In this document: piece after piece, positions 24,788 through 33,106 of the stretch
How the letters are laid out: each line of letters begins with the position of its first letter
Numbering within the stretch: the stretch's first letter is position 1
Source: a virus
Taxonomy: Duplodnaviria; Heunggongvirae; Uroviricota; Caudoviricetes
DNA length: 64,000 nt
Strand: one strand, 5' to 3'
IMG/VR virus record: IMGVR_UViG_2703718772_000011
The notes under the pieces: model-generated
Database searches by the model: none
What the model saw: only the letters and a program-made list of their open reading frames with translations
What the model was told of the DNA's origin: nothing
Made by a program: the position numbers and the translations under genes

Positions 24788-25060
24788 TCAGGCTCCTTTT
24801 GTTTCGTTGATTCGTTTTAAAGCGGCGGATTCGTCGAATACAATCGCATCGTGATTAAGGAGTCTGGATACACGAGCGAGGATTTTTACGACCTGCTCGC
24901 TGACTAATCCAAACTCGCGATCTGTCGCTTTCATTCCGGCAGCGCCTAGAATTGACGGCAGTGCGATGACAGCGTACTCACCGTGATAAAAGACAATCTC
25001 TTTTGCCAGTTGGGTGGGGGTGGTTGTAGCGCCATTAATAATCGATTTAAGCATTAGCAA
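24788..25060 (-). CDS. hypothetical protein (90 aa)
   Basis: ORF between FEN and recA genes. Confidence 0.45.
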   Translation of the reverse strand: MLMLKSIINGATTTPTQLAKEIVFYHGEYAVIALPSILGAAGMKATDREFGLVSEQVVKILARVSRLLNHDAIVFDESAALKRINETKGA

Positions 25061-26049
25061 TACCTTTCGAATGGAAGAACAAACACTTCAAGGTCTTCAA
25101 GGAACGAACGGAAATTCAGCTCGTAGCACAGTTGCTCGAATGCTTTCACGTCACGATTGCCTTTGATTGTTTCGATTTCGGTAGGCGGAAACTTCGTCTC
25201 AATCAGGTTCATTAGCGTGATGTTTCTCTTGAACGCTTCGAGCATTCGACAGCCTGTTTTCTCGTTGAAGGCATTCTTCGCTAGTTTGTTGAAGGCGGTC
25301 TTATGACGCCCTTTATTAACCACGATTGAGCCGTCGTTGATGCCGCGTACCATCGTTGCGACACTTCCCCATTCATGCAGCAGCTCTTTCGCACCGCCAG
25401 CACCAATGCCACCAACACCGCTAATGTTGTCCGAGTTATCGCCTTGTAATGCTTTTGCTTCCAAAAATGCGCGAGGCGTGGCGAATCCTGTCAGCTCCGC
25501 AAATTGCTCAAAATTAACCTGCTTGTTTTTGGCGTCTTCACGCAGGCTTACCCAGCTTACGTTTTCACGAACTAACTGAAGCCAGTCGCTATCGCCTGTT
25601 AACAGATAGATGTGTTCAACGGTTGGCTGCGGTGCCATGCGGGATACCAGCAGCCCGGCCAGATCATCCGCTTCTGCATCTTTTGCAATGAGTTGGGTAA
25701 CTCCAAGCGCGGTCATCATTTTGAGGATGTATGGCTTCTGGATAGCAAAGCCTTCCTTCATCTTTTTCATATCAGGATCGTCGTCGCGATTTGCTTTGTA
25801 GTCCGGGTAAAAGTCGCGACGCTTGTCACTAAATCCATCCCAAAGAATCATAGGTCGGGCATGGAGGATGGAGGCATAACGACGGACGTTCTTAACAAAG
25901 CCGAAAGCAGCCTGTACTTCCATTTCGCCGTTGTGCAATTTGTCAGATTGTTGGTGGTAATAACCCAGGCTATTGCCATCTACGAAGAGATAATTCACCG
26001 GTACATTCCTTCCAAAAAGTAAGGCGTCCGTAGACGCCTTACTGGTCAC
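25054..26049 (-). CDS. 5'-3' exonuclease / flap endonuclease
   Basis: YLFVDGNSLGYYH, LTGDSDWLQLV, GDNSDNISGVGGIG motifs of the Pol I 5'-nuclease/FEN family. Confidence 0.85.
   Translation of the reverse strand: MTSKASTDALLFGRNVPVNYLFVDGNSLGYYHQQSDKLHNGEMEVQAAFGFVKNVRRYASILHARPMILWDGFSDKRRDFYPDYKANRDDDPDMKKMKEGFAIQKPYILKMMTALGVTQLIAKDAEADDLAGLLVSRMAPQPTVEHIYLLTGDSDWLQLVRENVSWVSLREDAKNKQVNFEQFAELTGFATPRAFLEAKALQGDNSDNISGVGGIGAGGAKELLHEWGSVATMVRGINDGSIVVNKGRHKTAFNKLAKNAFNEKTGCRMLEAFKRNITLMNLIETKFPPTEIETIKGNRDVKAFEQLCYELNFRSFLEDLEVFVLPFERYC
26022..26047 (-). terminator. rho-independent terminator (ggcgtc-cgta-gacgcc plus T-run)
   Basis: Directly after the SSB-like gene stop. Confidence 0.65.
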
Positions 26050-26058
26050 GTAATGGGA

Positions 26059-27087
26059 TTACAGAGAGTCCAGCTCTCTCAGTAGGTCATCCAGACCTTC
26101 ATCTTCCGTCGCAGATGCGGCTGCTACAGATGTCGCTGCGACTGCTTCAGACTCTTTGACTGATACGGCAACGGCAGCGGAACTTGCTTCTGGTTTAAAT
26201 TCAGTTTCAACGGCACGGAGGATTTCTTCATCAACCAGACTGGTTGGTTCAGAAGCTGGGGTGTGAGCGGTTGCTACAGCAGTCGCACCCTCCGTATGAC
26301 CAGTGACAGAGCCAAATCCAGGTAGTGCCGCAGCCGATGTTTTCGCGGTTGAGGAAATTGCTGGTGCAGATGCTGCGGCAGTTGGTGCAGCGATGCCAAT
26401 CAGACGACCCATAGTGCGAACTGTCGACAGAAGACGAGTTTCATCAGCCTGATTTGCGTATGCGATCAGATCATGCTGGGTGTTCCAGAATTTATCTTCG
26501 ATATCGCCTTTGTAGACTTTACGCTTAGGCGAGACGTCATATTTGGTATCGCGACCAGAGCCAGTACGTTTAATCAGGAATGCGTAGCCTTCCTCTTTGC
26601 TCAGTGGATTGCCGATATCATCAGCGATGTCTTCGGTGATTGCTTTGCAGATATCATCGAATACAGTAGACGGCAGCTCGATTAACTGGCATTTCTCAGC
26701 ATCTGCGAAATCCTCACGAGCAGAAAGAATGCCGTTGACCAGGTAGCGAGGAGTGGCACGCATTTGACCGATGCGTTCTTCCATTGCTTTGTTACCCTTG
26801 TGACGAGCGCGACCTTCCATCACCATTTCGCATAGCTGACAAGCGCGACCGTGAGTATGTTGCTCACAAATATAAGCGTTGGTTGCTTCTTTACCTTCCT
26901 CGTTCTGATACTTAACGTAGTGCATACCGAAAGTCTGGAAGAACTTACCGTTTGGGTCGTCTTTATTCGGGAAGATGCGGATATAGTTGACGCCGTCTTT
27001 TAAGCGAGTCAGATCAACGTTGTTGCCACGTTTGGCGGCAATGTCTTCACGAGTTTTGTTAAGCAAATCAAGTAATGTCTTAGACAT
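26059..27087 (-). CDS. single-stranded DNA-binding protein (T4 gp32-like, putative)
   Basis: His/Cys spacing H56..C74..C83..C86 like the gp32 zinc site, Ala/Ser linker, acidic C-terminal tail EDEGLDDLLRELDSL. Confidence 0.55.
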   Translation of the reverse strand: MSKTLLDLLNKTREDIAAKRGNNVDLTRLKDGVNYIRIFPNKDDPNGKFFQTFGMHYVKYQNEEGKEATNAYICEQHTHGRACQLCEMVMEGRARHKGNKAMEERIGQMRATPRYLVNGILSAREDFADAEKCQLIELPSTVFDDICKAITEDIADDIGNPLSKEEGYAFLIKRTGSGRDTKYDVSPKRKVYKGDIEDKFWNTQHDLIAYANQADETRLLSTVRTMGRLIGIAAPTAAASAPAISSTAKTSAAALPGFGSVTGHTEGATAVATAHTPASEPTSLVDEEILRAVETEFKPEASSAAVAVSVKESEAVAATSVAAASATEDEGLDDLLRELDSL

Positions 27088-27204
27088 GTGTTTCTCCTTG
27101 TTGTGATTTGGCCGATGGCGCTATGCGCGTTGGGCTTTCGTTCATTCGTGGCTCTTTCGAGCTGTTAAATGATAGATCAGTACTTACTTATTATCTATCA
27201 AAAA

Positions 27205-27636
27205 TCAACGGGGAGTAATAAAGCGTTCAGAGCCTAATCGCTCTAATTCAACGATGGCCATCTTTGACGCCTGAACGATCATGTCTCGGCGATGCGAAAA
27301 GGCGGCGACAGCATGTTTGTATATGTCTGCGATGTGCCGTGCTTCATCCAACTTCTGCCGTTTAGACAGATACTGTGGGTTTGTTTTAACCTTAGCGTCC
27401 AGTACAGACTCGTTGAACTTAATGCCGTTCATACTCAAGTTCTTACGCTCTGTGTCGTATAGCTTTGCTTCAACAGCTTCAAGGTTAAGTTTTGCCTCTG
27501 CGACATCTCGATCTGCCTGCGCTAGTTTTGACCCATACTCCATTAAAAGCCGTGGCTGTTTACGCCATACTTCCTCAAGGTTGTCGCGGTCGAACTCCAG
27601 ATCGGCCATGATTTTAGAAAAAATATCAGTGTTCAC
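27205..27636 (-). CDS. hypothetical protein (possible UvsY-like recombination mediator)
   Basis: 143 aa coiled-coil protein next to SSB and RecA-like genes; similarity to UvsY is only by size and context. Confidence 0.4.
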   Translation of the reverse strand: MNTDIFSKIMADLEFDRDNLEEVWRKQPRLLMEYGSKLAQADRDVAEAKLNLEAVEAKLYDTERKNLSMNGIKFNESVLDAKVKTNPQYLSKRQKLDEARHIADIYKHAVAAFSHRRDMIVQASKMAIVELERLGSERFITPR

Positions 27637-27844
27637 TCTAATAGGTTCCTACTTATAAAATCTGTATCAATTATATCAAACAGAGAACGGGTTTATGGCG
27701 TCATGTCAACTTTGTTCAGGGGAAAATATTGAGATCACCGAAGATAATTAGTTGTCTTATTTTGGTAAGCTGTGCTGACCATCTTTAGGTCACATACATG
27801 AGATGGATGGGGGTGTGGCATGAACGGATGAAATTCAGTCGCCG

Positions 27845-27873
27845 TTGACAGATGTCAACACTGTGAATAGAAT
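27845..27873 (+). promoter_or_regulatory. consensus sigma70 promoter (TTGACA-17-TAGAAT) with overlapping palindrome TTGACAgaTGTCAA
   Basis: Hexamers at 27845..27850 and 27868..27873; GGAGG RBS at 27883; ATG at 27891. Confidence 0.7.
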
Positions 27874-27890
27874 ACTATTATCGGAGGCGA

Positions 27891-28115
27891 ATGAAGCAAC
27901 ATCCGAATAAGCATATTCAAGCAGCCATTGACTATGCATTAAGTAAAGGCTGGATCTGGGTAGCAGCTGGTGGTGCTGCACATTGTTTTTGCAGACTGCG
28001 ATGCGGTAATCCAGAAGGTGAACACAAAACTCACCAAATGAGCGTATGGTCGACTCCGGGTAATCCCGAAAACCATGCCAAACAGATCAAACGAATGGTT
28101 GATCGTTGTAAATGA
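27891..28115 (+). CDS. small His/Cys-rich protein (74 aa; HicA-like toxin candidate, unverified)
   Basis: First gene after the promoter; KGW...GGAAH pattern loosely HicA-like. Confidence 0.5.
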   Translation: MKQHPNKHIQAAIDYALSKGWIWVAAGGAAHCFCRLRCGNPEGEHKTHQMSVWSTPGNPENHAKQIKRMVDRCK

Positions 28116-28175
28116 TTTCAAGGCGGCATTAGCCGCCTTTTGCAGAAACTGTCCAACTATCTTCAAAGGAAAACT

Positions 28176-28739
28176 ATGGCGCTTTATAACTTCACTCTGA
28201 CGCTCTCAGGCGTATCGTATGAGACGGAAGGACTGGAAGACGCGCTGTACCAAAACGGCTGTGACGATGCGCTAATTTGCGCATATGGAAACTCCGTCTA
28301 TGTAGAATTTGACCGCGAAGCACAATCACTTGATGCAGCTATCGCATCTGCGGTCGACAATATTGAATCAGCCGGTATCGGTGCAATTGTTGAATCCGTC
28401 GACTCGGCTCTTGTGGGCTTAAGCGATATCGCGGAACTGACAGACCTGTCTCGCCAGGCAGTGGCGTTGCTCAAAGACGGTAAGCGCGGAAGCGGCGACT
28501 TCCCTTGCCCTGTACAACGCATAAAAGGCCAGTCTCCTCTCTGGGATTGGGCTGATGTGGCTGAATGGCTCATGAATAACGGACGACTTAAAGAGGGCGA
28601 TCAAATTGTCCAAAATGCCCGAACTTTGAGTAAATGGAATCTGGCGCTTCGAAACAGCGTCTCGAAAGATTTCAACGAAATAGAGCAAATTGCGGAGAAA
28701 CTGATTAAACGCCGCAAAGATATTGCGAAATGCGCATAA
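28176..28739 (+). CDS. HTH-containing protein (187 aa; HicB-like antitoxin candidate, unverified)
   Basis: AAGGA RBS then Met at 28176; helix-turn-helix-like LSDIAELTDLSRQAVALLKDG. Confidence 0.5.
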   Translation: MALYNFTLTLSGVSYETEGLEDALYQNGCDDALICAYGNSVYVEFDREAQSLDAAIASAVDNIESAGIGAIVESVDSALVGLSDIAELTDLSRQAVALLKDGKRGSGDFPCPVQRIKGQSPLWDWADVAEWLMNNGRLKEGDQIVQNARTLSKWNLALRNSVSKDFNEIEQIAEKLIKRRKDIAKCA

Positions 28740-28740
28740 T

Positions 28741-28772
28741 GATGCCCGCCAATTGGCGGGCATCTGTTCTCT
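28741..28772 (+). terminator. hairpin terminator (gatgcccgcc-aatt-ggcgggcatc)
   Basis: Perfect 10-bp stem 2 nt after the stop; weak T-tract. Confidence 0.5.
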
Positions 28773-28884: not shown

Positions 28885-29068
28885 AGCATCGTTGGTTTGC
28901 AAGACAGACCTTATGTAAGCAGTTTTAGTAAAGCAGTCTCAGTTCAGTGTTATCTTCTGATTTCCCTTCTTCGTGAGTCTCCTCCTTAAGTGCCTAAGTA
29001 AGTCCCAATCTATACAGATCAAATTCTCGCCGCACTATGTGGCTCACAAAATTAAGAAGGTAATATCT

Positions 29069-29284
29069 ATGTCTAATAAAATGACTGGTTTAGTAAAATG
29101 GTTTAACTCTGATAAAGGCTTTGGCTTTATTTCTCCTGCTGATGGCAGTAAAGATGTTTTTGTACATTTTTCGGCAATTCAGAGTAATAATTTCCGCACT
29201 TTGGAAGAAGGCCAGCAGGTCGAATTCTCTATCGAGAATGGTGCTAAAGGCCCAGCAGCAGCAAATGTCGTTGCTCTAAGCTGA
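29069..29284 (+). CDS. cspA: cold-shock protein CspA family
   Basis: [38 protein letters not shown]..., near-identical in pattern to E. coli CspA; start at the internal Met preceded by AAGAAGG. Confidence 0.9.
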
Positions 29285-29559
29285 TTCAACGCTGATGATC
29301 CTCATTTCTACAATAACGAAGACGGTGTAAGCCTGAGTGGATAGATTTGTAGGATTGTACAAGTTGAATAAATTAGCATGGTAAGGCCATGCTAATTAAA
29401 TCGACACAACGGCCAGTTTATTCCATAAAAGTGAATTGCCCATTGTGGCGAAATGCGGGGTTGCCGCATGAATAGTCAAAGGCAGAAGCTAACTGCCGGC
29501 ATGGCAAAACAAAGTGCGTAAGAGGAGTGACTTCCTCAACAAGCGCCATAATTCTTTAT

Positions 29560-29587
29560 AAACCCGCCAACAGGCGGGTTTTCTTTA
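29560..29587. terminator. terminator hairpin (cccgcc-aaca-ggcggg-ttttcttt), probably bidirectional
   Basis: Between convergent cspA island and dnaE stop. Confidence 0.6.
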
Positions 29588-32500
29588 TTACTTATTTATT
29601 GTCTCCGCGATATCAGCCAGAATGGCCTCCAGTCGCTCTCCTTCTTCCGGTCGGAAGTACAGGATATTCGGGTTAAATCCGTAGAAGACGGTTGCATCAA
29701 GCTCTGGGAAGTACTCCTTACGACCAATCAGATCTGATGGTTTACTCTTATTGTTAAATAGTGCGGTTGAACGACTACCACACGTCAAAATGTAGGTCGG
29801 ACGCACCAGATTGATCTCTTCACGTATAAAGTCGGTGAACTGGCCGATCTCGTCTTTGGTATAGTCTTTCTCTTTGTCCTTAACCTTCTTACAAACACCC
29901 GTGACATAAAGATCGCCCATGCGCAGATCTCCAACTGTCAGTAGTTTTGCCTTAAAGTCGTCGTATCCGTTCTCCATGAAGTAGCCGGTACGAGCGTCAT
30001 TGCCGTTCGCATTGTCCAGAATGATCATGATTTTGGGTTTAATACCAATAGTCGGGCGTATCAACTCCTCACCCAAGCCCATTTCAGCCGCCATACGTGT
30101 CATGAGTACGTTGATTTCGGCAGAACGCTTAGGATTCATTTCGAACGGACGTGATGCTTTAACAGCGTCAATGATGAGATTGCCCATCAGCTCAGCTTGG
30201 TCGCGCAGTCGTTCAGGATCAGTTGCTGGCAGACTGCCTGGCTCAATTGACGCAAAAGCCCCTACTTTATGAAGCGACTCGCGTACACGACTGTTACATG
30301 CACGCTTCTCGACCGCTTCATCGAATTGTGCCACTGACTCGAATTTGCCACCAACTTTCTCACGCGCACGCATAATTGCCTGACAACCATTTTCAGAACA
30401 GCCTTTCACAGCAGAGAATGGCGCATACAGTGCCTGACTGCCGTCTTCGAGTGTGCGGATCTCAATTCGGTTAGATGACACATTAACGTCTGGTGGCAAT
30501 ACGCGAATGCCATAGGTCAGCGCATCCTTCACCAGCCCCTGATGCTTATCCTCGCCCAGAATGGTGAGCGCAGCTGCGAAGAACTCAGCAGGGTAGTGCG
30601 TCTTTAGCCACATAGACTGATAACTGATTAAAGAATAAGCAACGGAGTGTGATTTATTGAACTGATAGGCTCCGTTTTTCTCAAATGCGGTCCAGATCTC
30701 CTTCGCTTTCATCTCTGATAGCCCTGGATGTGACGCTGTAACGCGTACTGCGTTTATAGGTAGTTTTGCGCCGTGCTCAAGTGCCTCTTCGACAGTTTTC
30801 AGAGTTCCGTCTTCGCATTTAAAATGTTCCGCACGGTGAATGCGCTGTGTAGTGCCATCTTCCAGCTCAACGTCTATCCAGCCAGCTTGAGCCTGAACGA
30901 TGAACTTCTCGCCCATGCTCTTCATTTTTTCCATGTTCTTCTTACCGATTGCGGAACGCACAGCGTCAGCTTCAGCCATTGTGAAGCCGGCAAGCAATCG
31001 AGTCGCGTTCATCGTCTGTTCCTGATAGAGAATCACGCCATTTGTTTCCGCGGTAAGTTCATCAAGAACGGGGTGTAATGATTCCGGCGTCATAAAGCCT
31101 TTGGCGACAGAAACATAGTCATCCAACATGCCTGATTGAATTGGCCCCGGCCGGAAGAGCGCAGTTGTAGCGACGACCGTTTTAAAGCTCATTGGCTCAA
31201 TTCCACCACCTAAATCTTTAAGCAGCTTGCGCATTGGGCCTGATTCAAGCTGGAAAACACCTTGAGTGTACCCAGCAGCAAAACCATCCAGCACCTTGCG
31301 ATCTTCAAGAGAAATGGCATCAAGATTGATATCTTCACCTGTGTTCTCTTTTATGTAGCGTTTTGCACTATCGAGCAAATCGAGAGTTGCCAGGCCAAGC
31401 ACGTCCAGCTTAATTAGGCCCATAGCCTCGCAGTAACGCTTGTCAAATGCGATACAACGCGCGTCACCACGGCGCTCAACCGGTGTACGTTCTGTCAGAG
31501 GAACACCTGCTACGATCATCCCTGCCGCATGTCTACCAAAGCCACGCATAAGGCTTTGTAACTTGCAGGCTGCATTGAATGCATCAGGATATTTTGTTGC
31601 GTATTTGTCGAGACTTGCCAGTTGTTCGCGCAGTTCTTCCAATGGAAGGCTATCATCCTCAGCGTTCTTCAGTTCTTTTGATACCGCCATATCTGCGGAC
31701 TCCACACCATAAATACGAGCGGTATCACGTAGTGCAGAGGCTGCGCCCAGGTAGGTGAAGTTCGGAATACCCGCAACGTAATCTTCGCCGTAGCGTTCAT
31801 TCAGATACTCGATCACCTCATGGCGACGTGCCTGGCTGAAGTCCAAGTCCGCATCCGGCAAGTCGAGACGCTCAGGGTTGATGAAACGCTCAAACAGAAG
31901 ACCGTGACGGATTGGGTCGACGTTGGTTATGCCTATGCACCACGCCACCAGAGAACCGGCAGAGGAACCACGACCAGGCCCAACGGGAATGCCAGTTTCA
32001 CGACTATGATTCATCAGATCGCGTACCATCAGGAAGTAACCACAAAATCCCAGGCGAGTCAGCGTGTCCATTTCGTACTTTAGCCGCTCAACATAAACCC
32101 TGTTCTCTGAAGCAGGTGGTGTGTATCCAAACTCTTTTGTGGTAAGACGTTTACGCAGCCCTGCAACAGCCAGTTTCATAAGCGTTGCAGGCTCGTCGTC
32201 TGCCATCTTTGGCAGTGCTGGCGGCAATTCATGCCAGCGCCATGTGCAGGCATCGATAATGGTATCCTGCGTTGTTGAGGCCATTGCAGCTGTTACCGGC
32301 ACATCCATGCGAACGGAGAAGGCTTTAAGCGCCTCAAGGAGATGGCGGCGACCATTGACGGCGTTATCTCGCTGGTGGGGGATACGCAGACGATGCGGCT
32401 GGTCGATTTTGATGTTGTTCGTAACCATGTGCGCAATGTCTTTAATGTCTGCATCGTCGATCGATTCGTAATAAGCGGGATAGAACGCCACTGGCTCTAT

Positions 32501-33106
32501 TTTCAATGCGCTGGCGACTTTCATCGCCCGGACGTTAATCTGGTCGTAGAATGGGGTAGGATGCGGATAAACCACACTATAGAAGTTGTCTTTTCCACCC
32601 GCTGTAATCAGTGTGCTTATGATTTTTGCAAAATCGTTGCGTTGGAACACGCTACCGATGTCGGAAGTAAGCAGGATGATGTTGCCTTTGGCATATGTAG
32701 AAACCAACTGTTCGAGCGAGAGACGCGGTACAAAGTAGAACTGTTCTCGTGTGTTGGCCACCGTCATTAGTTCGCAGATGTCGCGATATCCTTGCTCATT
32801 TTTAATTAGAGCGGTAAACGAGTAGTTACGTCCCCGCTCTAATGATTCCATACATCTCATAGATTCTTTAGCAAGTTTAGCCCGGTGCTCGTATGTGGGA
32901 TCATCAACGATATTTAGTTTCACACCACAAATAACCGCCATGTCGTCACCAGCGGCACGTTGTAGTGGAATAACACTCGCAATATTCATGCTATCTGCTG
33001 AAATTACAGCGGTGTAGCCAGCTTCTCTGGCAATCTTCACCGCGTTTTCTGCTTTTAGAGCCGACTCCCCAAGTGAGAAGTCAGTTCGAACCATCAGTGC
33101 TTTCAT
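29588..33106 (-). CDS. dnaE: DNA polymerase III alpha-type replicative polymerase (DnaE family)
   Basis: 1172 aa; GYFLMVRD..GIPVGPGRGSSAGSLVAW...LLFERFINPER and FNKSHSVAYSLISYQSMWLKTHYPAEF match DnaE catalytic-core blocks. Confidence 0.95.
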   Translation of the reverse strand: MKALMVRTDFSLGESALKAENAVKIAREAGYTAVISADSMNIASVIPLQRAAGDDMAVICGVKLNIVDDPTYEHRAKLAKESMRCMESLERGRNYSFTALIKNEQGYRDICELMTVANTREQFYFVPRLSLEQLVSTYAKGNIILLTSDIGSVFQRNDFAKIISTLITAGGKDNFYSVVYPHPTPFYDQINVRAMKVASALKIEPVAFYPAYYESIDDADIKDIAHMVTNNIKIDQPHRLRIPHQRDNAVNGRRHLLEALKAFSVRMDVPVTAAMASTTQDTIIDACTWRWHELPPALPKMADDEPATLMKLAVAGLRKRLTTKEFGYTPPASENRVYVERLKYEMDTLTRLGFCGYFLMVRDLMNHSRETGIPVGPGRGSSAGSLVAWCIGITNVDPIRHGLLFERFINPERLDLPDADLDFSQARRHEVIEYLNERYGEDYVAGIPNFTYLGAASALRDTARIYGVESADMAVSKELKNAEDDSLPLEELREQLASLDKYATKYPDAFNAACKLQSLMRGFGRHAAGMIVAGVPLTERTPVERRGDARCIAFDKRYCEAMGLIKLDVLGLATLDLLDSAKRYIKENTGEDINLDAISLEDRKVLDGFAAGYTQGVFQLESGPMRKLLKDLGGGIEPMSFKTVVATTALFRPGPIQSGMLDDYVSVAKGFMTPESLHPVLDELTAETNGVILYQEQTMNATRLLAGFTMAEADAVRSAIGKKNMEKMKSMGEKFIVQAQAGWIDVELEDGTTQRIHRAEHFKCEDGTLKTVEEALEHGAKLPINAVRVTASHPGLSEMKAKEIWTAFEKNGAYQFNKSHSVAYSLISYQSMWLKTHYPAEFFAAALTILGEDKHQGLVKDALTYGIRVLPPDVNVSSNRIEIRTLEDGSQALYAPFSAVKGCSENGCQAIMRAREKVGGKFESVAQFDEAVEKRACNSRVRESLHKVGAFASIEPGSLPATDPERLRDQAELMGNLIIDAVKASRPFEMNPKRSAEINVLMTRMAAEMGLGEELIRPTIGIKPKIMIILDNANGNDARTGYFMENGYDDFKAKLLTVGDLRMGDLYVTGVCKKVKDKEKDYTKDEIGQFTDFIREEINLVRPTYILTCGSRSTALFNNKSKPSDLIGRKEYFPELDATVFYGFNPNILYFRPEEGERLEAILADIAETINK

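What the first reader, a model, noticed from the sequence alone, without database searches (positions are those of the whole stretch)
27845..28772. Plus-strand cassette under a consensus sigma70 promoter with palindromic operator: candidate toxin-antitoxin or regulator pair
Amid minus-strand genes, a textbook host promoter (TTGACA-17-TAGAAT) whose -35 is embedded in the palindrome TTGACAgaTGTCAA drives a 74-aa His/Cys-rich protein and a 187-aa protein with an HTH, ending in a hairpin terminator. Gene sizes, order and the autoregulation-like operator fit a HicA/HicB-type module, but similarity to HicA/HicB is weak by eye. It could be a different, uncharacterised small-protein/regulator pair expressed from the resident element.
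Basis: inference. Interest (0 to 1): 0.7.

Follow-up and report, generated by a model that had tools for sequence, protein, structure and literature searches.

The report
Self-repressed toxin–antitoxin-like pair on phage-plasmid
A real, widely conserved two-gene cassette on an E. coli phage-plasmid looks built like a self-repressing toxin–antitoxin or phage-defence module, but it is already catalogued as an untested candidate and is only loosely HicA-like, not a true HicAB.

Summary
The window is an SSU5/pMT1-type phage-plasmid, 99.7% identical to Escherichia phage Cyrano, whose record already labels the genes HicA/HicB and whose paper shows them expressed in the lysogen. Neither protein hits Pfam or NCBIfam. 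Both hit PADLOC's untested defence candidate PDC-M06 (A and B).

- **ORF2 (187 aa):** not HicB. It has an acidic ferredoxin-like N-domain, an AlpA/excisionase-type winged HTH and a helical tail.
- **Pairing:** the genes are adjacent in 79 of 80 loci across several phyla.
- **Operator:** GTTGAC-N4-GTCAAC over the −35 occurs in 48 of 52 loci whose ORF2 has the HTH, and in 0 of 26 without it. Its half-site co-varies with the recognition helix.
- **Decay pattern:** ORF1 is broken in several loci that keep ORF2, and never the reverse.

Best reading: an autorepressed type II toxin–antitoxin-like or defence module, a new variant of a known kind. Toxicity, binding and defence are all untested.

The parts
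27844..27859 (+). Operator: 16-bp palindrome GTTGACAgaTGTCAAC. Half-sites are 10 bp centre to centre and the palindrome overlaps the -35.
   Evidence: Read directly. It is the only perfect GTTGAC-N4-GTCAAC in the window. It is present in 48/52 loci with an HTH-bearing ORF2, 0/26 loci without the HTH, and 2/3950 background windows. There are 33 different central tetramers among 49 sites. The result is replicated in viral contigs.
27845..27873 (+). Sigma-70 promoter TTGACA-17-TAGAAT (-35 at 27845-27850, -10 at 27868-27873).
   Evidence: An equivalent promoter is found at the same position in related loci. Both genes are transcribed above prophage background in strain LF82.
27883..27887 (+). Shine-Dalgarno GGAGG of ORF1, 3 nt before the ATG.
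   Evidence: Read directly. GGAGG is conserved in enterobacterial loci.
27891..28115 (+). ORF1, 74 aa. Basic (pI 9.5) with a predicted alpha-beta-beta-beta-alpha fold. Putative effector/toxin, matching PADLOC PDC-M06A.
28120..28139 (+). Intercistronic GC hairpin AAGGCGGC-auua-GCCGCCUU followed by UU. Possible partial terminator or mRNA-stability element.
   Evidence: dG -14.8, z -3.2. The hairpin is conserved as a structure with differing sequence in about 20 of 22 enterobacterial loci with a spacer of at least 50 nt, and in SSU5.
28166..28170 (+). Shine-Dalgarno AAGGA of ORF2, 5 nt before the ATG.
   Evidence: Read directly.
28176..28406 (+). ORF2 N-terminal domain (aa 1-77). Acidic (pI 4.05, net -13), ferredoxin-like beta-alpha-beta-beta-alpha-beta. 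Putative ORF1-neutralising domain.
   Evidence: It is the only part of ORF2 conserved next to ORF1 in all clades.
28407..28580 (+). ORF2 winged helix-turn-helix (aa 78-135), AlpA/excisionase type. Recognition helix LSRQAVALL.
28596..28739 (+). ORF2 C-terminal helical hairpin (aa 141-187, basic) and stop codon. Found only in the roughly 185-aa enterobacterial class.
28741..28764 (+). Terminator hairpin GATGCCCGCC-aatt-GGCGGGCATC.
   Evidence: Similarity to related plasmids ends here in some variants (hits covering query positions 1-1161).

Best explanation
The cassette is an autonomous, self-repressed two-gene module of the type II toxin-antitoxin / abortive-infection kind. It is the same cassette PADLOC lists as the untested defence candidate PDC-M06. 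The phage-plasmid carries it as cargo expressed during lysogeny.

Shown or strongly supported in silico:
- One sigma-70 promoter drives ORF1 then ORF2.
- ORF2's AlpA/excisionase-type winged HTH recognises the palindrome GTTGAC-N4-GTCAAC, presumably as a dimer. The palindrome covers the -35, so ORF2 represses its own operon.

Inferred:
- ORF1 is the effector. It is a small basic protein with a HicA-like alpha-beta-beta-beta-alpha fold, held by a Cys38 / Cys-or-His48 / Cys73 metal (probably Zn) site at one pole.
- An invariant His4 / Lys7 / His31 / His62 cluster sits at the other pole. It most likely binds or cleaves RNA as HicA does.
- ORF2's strongly acidic ferredoxin-like N-domain binds and neutralises ORF1.
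- Loss of the plasmid, or phage-induced shut-off or antitoxin turnover, would free ORF1 and arrest the cell. That would stabilise the phage-plasmid and/or abort infection by other phages.
- The conserved hairpin between the genes tunes the ORF1:ORF2 transcript ratio.
For: - **Pairing:** ORF1 is followed at once by a homologue of the ORF2 N-domain in 79 of 80 genome loci, from Enterobacterales to Planctomycetota, and in 29 of 29 distinct viral loci. Stop and start often overlap as ATGA.
- **Operator:** it is present in 48/52 loci where ORF2 has the HTH, 0/26 where it lacks it, and 2/3950 background windows. The arms are fixed and the centre is free. [ST]RQ helices go with GTTGAC and [ST][RK]A helices with GTTTAC. 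The window holds a single site.
- **Charge:** ORF1 pI is 9.5 and the ORF2 N-domain pI is 4.05, family-wide.
- **Conserved residues:** Cys38 94/96, Cys/His48 91/96, Cys73 94/96, His4 96/96, His31 91/96.
- **Asymmetric decay:** ORF1 carries a nonsense or frameshift mutation with ORF2 intact in L018, L055, L059 and L080. No locus has an intact ORF1 without the ORF2 N-domain.
- **Context:** the pair sits in mobile-element cargo next to other TA pairs, or as an isolated two-gene islet in unrelated chromosomal neighbourhoods.
- **PADLOC:** hits are PDC-M06A at 1.2e-19 and PDC-M06B at 1.3e-32. This candidate was derived from genes embedded in BREX/DISARM/type I RM systems.
- **Expression:** both genes are transcribed 30x and 14x above prophage background in the LF82 lysogen.
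Against: - No toxicity, neutralisation, DNA-binding or defence experiment exists for this family. The PDCs are explicitly untested.
- A terminator-like hairpin upstream of the supposed antitoxin, with ORF1 mRNA about twice ORF2 mRNA, is an odd arrangement for a toxin.
- Many family members have an ORF2 with no DNA-binding domain at all.
- The pMT1-type operator is degenerate even though the HTH is intact.
- The metal site and the active-site cluster are deduced from conservation and secondary-structure positions. I had no model coordinates and no metal data.
Confidence: 0.6

Rival explanations
1. It is a canonical HicAB type II toxin-antitoxin system, as annotated in the Cyrano GenBank record. 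ORF1 would be a HicA mRNA interferase and ORF2 a HicB antitoxin.
Confidence: 0.1
2. It is a non-toxic regulatory pair. ORF1 is a small metal- or redox-sensing co-factor, suggested by its Cys/His-rich site. It binds the ORF2 N-domain, which resembles ACT/RAM/HMA ligand-binding domains, and so modulates ORF2's binding to the operator. No killing is involved.
For: The ORF2 N-domain is structurally closest to HMA, ACT and AsnC-RAM sensor domains. ORF1 has conserved Cys/His residues. ORF1 mRNA exceeds ORF2 mRNA and a hairpin precedes ORF2. In SSU5-type phage-plasmids the pair holds a fixed position among replication and recombination genes.
Against: The window holds one operator, at the pair's own promoter, so there is no regulon to control. 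About a third of family members have an ORF2 without any DNA-binding domain yet keep ORF1. The scattered islet-like and mobile-element distribution and the asymmetric loss of ORF1 are typical of selfish or defence modules. The cassette is also embedded in restriction and BREX loci.
Confidence: 0.2
3. ORF2 is an excisionase or recombination directionality factor, as PHROG 2620 is labelled, and ORF1 is an unrelated small phage protein.
Against: In E. coli the element is always an extrachromosomal plasmid. No integrase lies within the surrounding 17 kb. The target site is a palindrome on the pair's own promoter. The pairing with ORF1 is obligate, and forms lacking the HTH exist.
Confidence: 0.03

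Closest known systems
HicAB type II toxin-antitoxin systems (E. coli K-12 hicAB; structures 6g26, 4p78, 5yrz, 1whz)
   Different: No sequence or profile similarity passes any threshold and there is no Foldseek support. ORF1 has an extra conserved N-terminal HPxK motif, an insert between beta2 and beta3, and a Cys/Cys-or-His/Cys triad. The ORF2 N-domain is ferredoxin-like rather than the HicB fold, and its DNA-binding domain is AlpA/excisionase-type rather than RHH or XRE.
PADLOC-DB v2 phage defence candidate PDC-M06 (Payne et al., bioRxiv 10.1101/2024.01.29.577857; cassette CAS_00046)
   Same: Both proteins match its two HMM sets in the right order, A then B, at E 1.2e-19 and 1.3e-32. This is the same family.
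   Different: PDC-M06 is only a catalogue entry, with 497 RefSeq instances, chosen because some copy is embedded in a BREX, DISARM or type I RM locus. No function, fold, operator or mechanism is given for it in the paper text or the supplements I could read, and it was not tested.
AlpA / excisionase-family winged-helix regulators (Pfam HTH_17/Phage_AlpA; e.g. PDB 8c3t)
   Same: ORF2 residues about 78-135 have this fold, with the motifs 'FP.P' and 'W.W..V..W'. RefSeq sometimes names ORF2 'AlpA family transcriptional regulator'.
   Different: Here the domain is fused behind a conserved acidic ferredoxin-like domain and ahead of a helical hairpin. It is tied to a palindromic operator on its own promoter and always sits next to ORF1. 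Pfam scores are below threshold.

Membership tests
HicA toxin (Pfam PF07927 HicA_toxin) | Significant match to the family HMM or profile | tested here: not met
   There is no hit at E<=1 for ORF1 or for any of 96 relatives. Profiles A1 and A3 against PDB sequences find no HicA chain. hhalign against a true HicA alignment gives only a 16-21 column non-collinear local match; the collinear alignment has probability 0.2%.
HicA toxin (Pfam PF07927 HicA_toxin) | dsRBD-like alpha1-beta1-beta2-beta3-alpha2 fold | tested here: inconclusive
HicA toxin (Pfam PF07927 HicA_toxin) | Conserved catalytic His after a Gly-rich beta1-beta2 loop | tested here: inconclusive
   His31 is conserved in 91/96 members, sits at the start of beta2 and follows the pattern GxSxH. 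The equivalence to HicA His23 rests on secondary-structure position and on an insignificant alignment.
HicA toxin (Pfam PF07927 HicA_toxin) | mRNA interferase activity and toxicity relieved by the partner | not testable with these tools
   This needs expression and RNase assays.
HicB antitoxin | N-terminal HicB fold (partial RNase-H-like, beta-beta-beta-alpha-beta; Pfam HicB / HicB_lk_antitox / UPF0150) | tested here: not met
HicB antitoxin | C-terminal RHH or XRE-type HTH DNA-binding domain | tested here: not met
   The DNA-binding domain is an AlpA/excisionase-type winged helix.
Type II toxin-antitoxin module (generic) | Two small co-oriented, tightly linked genes that are inherited together | tested here: met
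   The genes are adjacent in 79/80 genome loci and 29/29 distinct viral loci, with many 4-nt overlaps.
Type II toxin-antitoxin module (generic) | Antitoxin with a DNA-binding domain that autoregulates through an operator in the promoter | tested here: met
   This is in-silico evidence only. The palindrome over the -35 tracks the presence of the HTH (48/52 against 0/26) and co-varies with the recognition helix. Binding itself was not tested.
Type II toxin-antitoxin module (generic) | Toxicity of one partner and neutralisation by direct binding of the other | not testable with these tools
   Indirect support only: the partners have opposite charge, and ORF1-only pseudogenes exist in 4-5 loci against none for ORF2 N-domain only.
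PADLOC PDC-M06 (phage defence candidate) | Both component HMMs hit adjacent genes in the order A then B | tested here: met
   PDC-M06A at 1.2e-19 covers ORF1 residues 2-74. PDC-M06B at 1.3e-32 covers ORF2 residues 3-161.
PADLOC PDC-M06 (phage defence candidate) | Anti-phage activity | not testable with these tools
   The source states that the 145 PDCs are untested.
Excisionase / recombination directionality factor (PHROG 2620 label) | Works with an integrase of the same element at att sites | tested here: not met
   No integrase lies among the 17 genes around the cassette. In E. coli the cassette is on plasmids in 110 of 110 genomes. The only matching site in the window is the pair's own promoter.

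The most novel reading that the evidence does not exclude
ORF1 founds a new metal-stabilised toxin family of about 700 clusters at 50% identity, from Enterobacterales to Planctomycetota. Its resemblance to HicA is either extremely remote or convergent. It is neutralised by a previously undescribed acidic ferredoxin-like antitoxin domain. The pair acts as an abortive-infection defence and addiction module carried by SSU5-type phage-plasmids, including Yersinia pestis pMT1. The conserved intercistronic hairpin sets a deliberate toxin-over-antitoxin transcript ratio.
Probability: 0.3. Interest if true: 0.6.

Novelty: new variant of a known kind. Interest (0 to 1): 0.4.

Why it matters
If ORF1 is a toxin, this adds a new toxin family and a new antitoxin domain to the type II toxin-antitoxin and defence repertoire. 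The family has about 700 sequence clusters across several phyla. It would also give a function to a gene pair that sits at a fixed position in SSU5-type phage-plasmids, including Y. pestis pMT1 and about 2% of complete E. coli genomes. Those elements matter for plasmid persistence and for phage therapy. The comparative work here supplies ready-made experiments: a defined 16-bp operator with a predicted base-to-residue specificity pair (Gln with G, Ala with T), candidate catalytic and metal-ligand residues, and the domain expected to neutralise ORF1. The value is limited, because the cassette is already catalogued as PDC-M06, is already annotated as a toxin-antitoxin pair in Cyrano, and its architecture is conventional.

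Tried and rejected
- Pfam, NCBIfam and PDB sequence searches found nothing meaningful. I ran them with single sequences and with family profiles for ORF1, ORF2 and the ORF2 N-domain.
- Foldseek of the ORF1 model against the PDB gave no significant hit.
- The afdb50 library was unavailable.
- hhalign of the ORF1 family against a true HicA alignment gave only a short non-collinear match, and -glob and -alt runs did not rescue a collinear one.
- I looked for further operator copies in the window to test for a wider regulon. There are none beyond chance.
- Rfam found no known RNA within the cassette, only the downstream cspA leader.
- The literature holds no functional study. 'PDC-M06' returns no paper, and HicA+SSU5 returns only the LF82/Cyrano annotation and transcriptome.
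- A complex prediction for ORF1:ORF2 and inspection of model coordinates for the putative metal site were not possible with the tools.

Full report
**What the window is.** The region is 99.7% identical to Escherichia phage Cyrano (OV696614), the SSU5-like phage-plasmid of E. coli LF82, and 100% identical to several E. coli plasmids of about 110 kb. The cassette lies on the plus strand between minus-strand replication and recombination genes. These are a 5'-3' exonuclease, a gp32-like SSB, a UvsY-like gene and DNA polymerase III alpha. The same position is occupied by the same pair in Y. pestis pMT1, a Salmonella plasmid and phage SSU5. In complete E. coli genomes the cassette is present in 110 of 5,426, once each, always on a plasmid.

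**Checking the observation.** All the reported features are there.
- The promoter is TTGACA-17-TAGAAT at 27845-27873, matching 11 of 12 positions. It is the only such match in the 64 kb, but chance expectation is 0.37, so it is not decisive alone.
- The palindrome is GTTGACAgaTGTCAAC at 27844-27859.
- ORF1 is 27891-28115 (74 aa, 6 His, 4 Cys) and ORF2 is 28176-28739 (187 aa).
- A strong terminator hairpin lies at 28741-28764.

**Is the promoter used?** A published transcriptome of the LF82 lysogen lists CYRAN_51 (ORF1) at 30x and CYRAN_50 (ORF2) at 14x the local prophage background. The authors class both genes among the element's 'morons' (PMC9928086).

**The proteins.** Neither protein matches any Pfam or NCBIfam model. 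PHROGs places ORF1 in an unknown-function family and ORF2 in a family labelled 'excisionase and transcriptional regulator'.
- **Against a HicA assignment.** Foldseek finds nothing significant. Profiles of the family find no HicA chain among PDB sequences. None of 96 relatives touches Pfam HicA_toxin. hhalign against a genuine HicA alignment gives only a short non-collinear match.
- **ORF1 conservation.** The family is sizeable, with 718 clusters at 50% identity. His4 is invariant. His31, Cys38, Thr55, Pro56, Ala63 and Cys73 are at least 90% conserved. Position 48 is Cys in 79 and His in 12 of 96 members. A Cys-to-His exchange at a conserved site points to a metal ligand.
- **Two poles (my inference).** From their places in the secondary structure, Cys38, residue 48 and Cys73 would lie at one pole, and His4, Lys7, His31 and His62 at the other. 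I could not inspect coordinates.
- **ORF2.** The model has pLDDT 90.5. It has a beta-alpha-beta-beta-alpha-beta N-domain whose nearest structures are generic ferredoxin-like modules (HMA, ACT, AsnC-RAM). A winged HTH follows, closest to AlpA/excisionase and small-terminase HTHs, and then two long helices. No HicB chain appears in the top 60. So ORF2 is not HicB.

**Comparative genomics.** This carries most of the argument.
- **Pairing.** A scan of one genome per species found 192 loci, of which I kept 80. They come from Enterobacterales, Pasteurellaceae, Neisseria, Acinetobacter, Planctomycetota, Latescibacterota and others. In 79 of the 80, ORF1 is followed at once by a homologue of the ORF2 N-domain, often with an ATGA overlap.
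- **ORF2 length classes.** About 185 aa has the N-domain, HTH and tail. About 147 aa has the N-domain and HTH. About 84-98 aa has the N-domain only. The N-domain is therefore the constant partner of ORF1. It is acidic (median pI 4.1) while ORF1 is basic (median pI 9.5).
- **Operator.** GTT[G/T]AC-N4-GT[C/A]AAC lies over the -35, mostly 43-57 nt before the ATG. It occurs in 48 of 52 loci with an HTH-bearing ORF2, in none of 26 with a short ORF2, and in 2 of 3,950 background windows. The 49 sites show 33 different central tetramers. The pattern recurs in an independent set of viral contigs.
- **Specificity co-variation.** Recognition helices reading [ST]RQ go with GTTGAC and those reading [ST][RK]A go with GTTTAC. 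There is one hybrid locus and one exception. This probably reflects few evolutionary events.
- **Exceptions and regulon.** The pMT1-type operator has a degenerate right arm. The window has no second operator.

**Signs of a selfish or defensive module.**
- ORF1 carries nonsense or frameshift mutations while ORF2 stays intact in L018, L055, L059 and L080. L043 and L074 show further decay. No locus keeps ORF1 without the ORF2 N-domain.
- Contexts are unrelated to one another. They include a P4-like island beside a RelE pair, a P2-like prophage beside a YoeB pair, an integrase islet, and bare chromosomal sites.
- Both proteins hit PADLOC's PDC-M06A/B. That cassette has 497 RefSeq instances and was nominated because copies are embedded in BREX, DISARM or type I RM loci. 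It is explicitly untested.

**An oddity.** In about 20 of 22 enterobacterial loci with a spacer of at least 50 nt, and in SSU5, the spacer holds a GC hairpin followed by U residues. The sequence differs between loci but the structure is kept. This fits the twofold drop in RNA from ORF1 to ORF2. A partial terminator ahead of an antitoxin gene is unexpected, and it keeps a non-toxic regulatory reading alive.

**Verdict.** The cassette is a real, self-contained and very probably self-repressed module. Its architecture and evolutionary behaviour are those of a type II toxin-antitoxin or abortive-infection system. It is not a HicAB member: HicA membership fails on sequence and is inconclusive on fold, and HicB membership fails on both defining features. 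It may still work like one. It is already in public catalogues (the Cyrano annotation and PDC-M06), so the novelty is that of an uncharacterised variant, not a new kind of system.

Noticed in passing
window 28891-29309 (+); CDS 29069-29284; terminator 29560-29581: A complete cspA-type cold-shock gene with its thermoregulator 5'UTR lies just downstream of the cassette (Rfam RF01766, 187.6 bits; Pfam CSD 1.4e-33). It is a second plus-strand cargo gene. The 99.7%-identical Cyrano record annotates nothing here, and pMT1 and SSU5 carry a minus-strand 141-aa ORF instead.
   Followed up: partly
window 28120-28139 (+), and the equivalent spacers in L002-L048 and L088: The GC hairpin plus U-run between ORF1 and ORF2 is conserved as a structure with differing sequences in most enterobacterial loci. 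It is absent where the genes overlap. It fits the 30x against 14x RNA levels in LF82. It could be a partial terminator or a stability element.
   Followed up: partly
L002/L003/L013 (Y. pestis pMT1 and a Salmonella plasmid), upstream of ORF1; also L126 and L132: The pMT1-type copies keep the promoter and an intact SRQ recognition helix, but the right operator arm is degenerate (GTTGACacgcGCTCAC). This suggests relaxed or altered autoregulation in that lineage.
   Followed up: no
L018, L055, L059 (Providencia), L080 (Planctomycetia), L043 (Cardiobacteriaceae), L074 (Pectobacterium): ORF1 is a pseudogene (nonsense or frameshift) in these genomes. ORF2 and usually the operator are retained in the first four. 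In L074 the whole module has decayed.
   Followed up: yes
ORF1 residues 4-10 and 58-65 (window 27900-27920 and 28062-28085): There is an internal echo of a helix-capping motif: HPNKHIQ before helix 1 and NPENHAKQ before helix 2. hhalign aligns the first of these with the HicA PRHPxxEI motif that precedes HicA's last helix.
   Followed up: partly
P0039 (Shewanella homologue of ORF1): One NCBI record names an ORF1 homologue 'ribulose bisphosphate carboxylase small subunit'. Weak sub-threshold RuBisCO_small hits recur in 12 of 96 family members, so this is probably a misannotation.
   Followed up: partly
window 25054-27636 (-) and 29588-33106 (-): The phage-plasmid carries T4-like recombination genes (a gp32-like SSB with Pfam gp32 at 1.7e-66, and a UvsY-like gene as annotated in Cyrano). 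It also carries a 5'-3' exonuclease and its own DNA polymerase III alpha subunit, all flanking the cassette.
   Followed up: no
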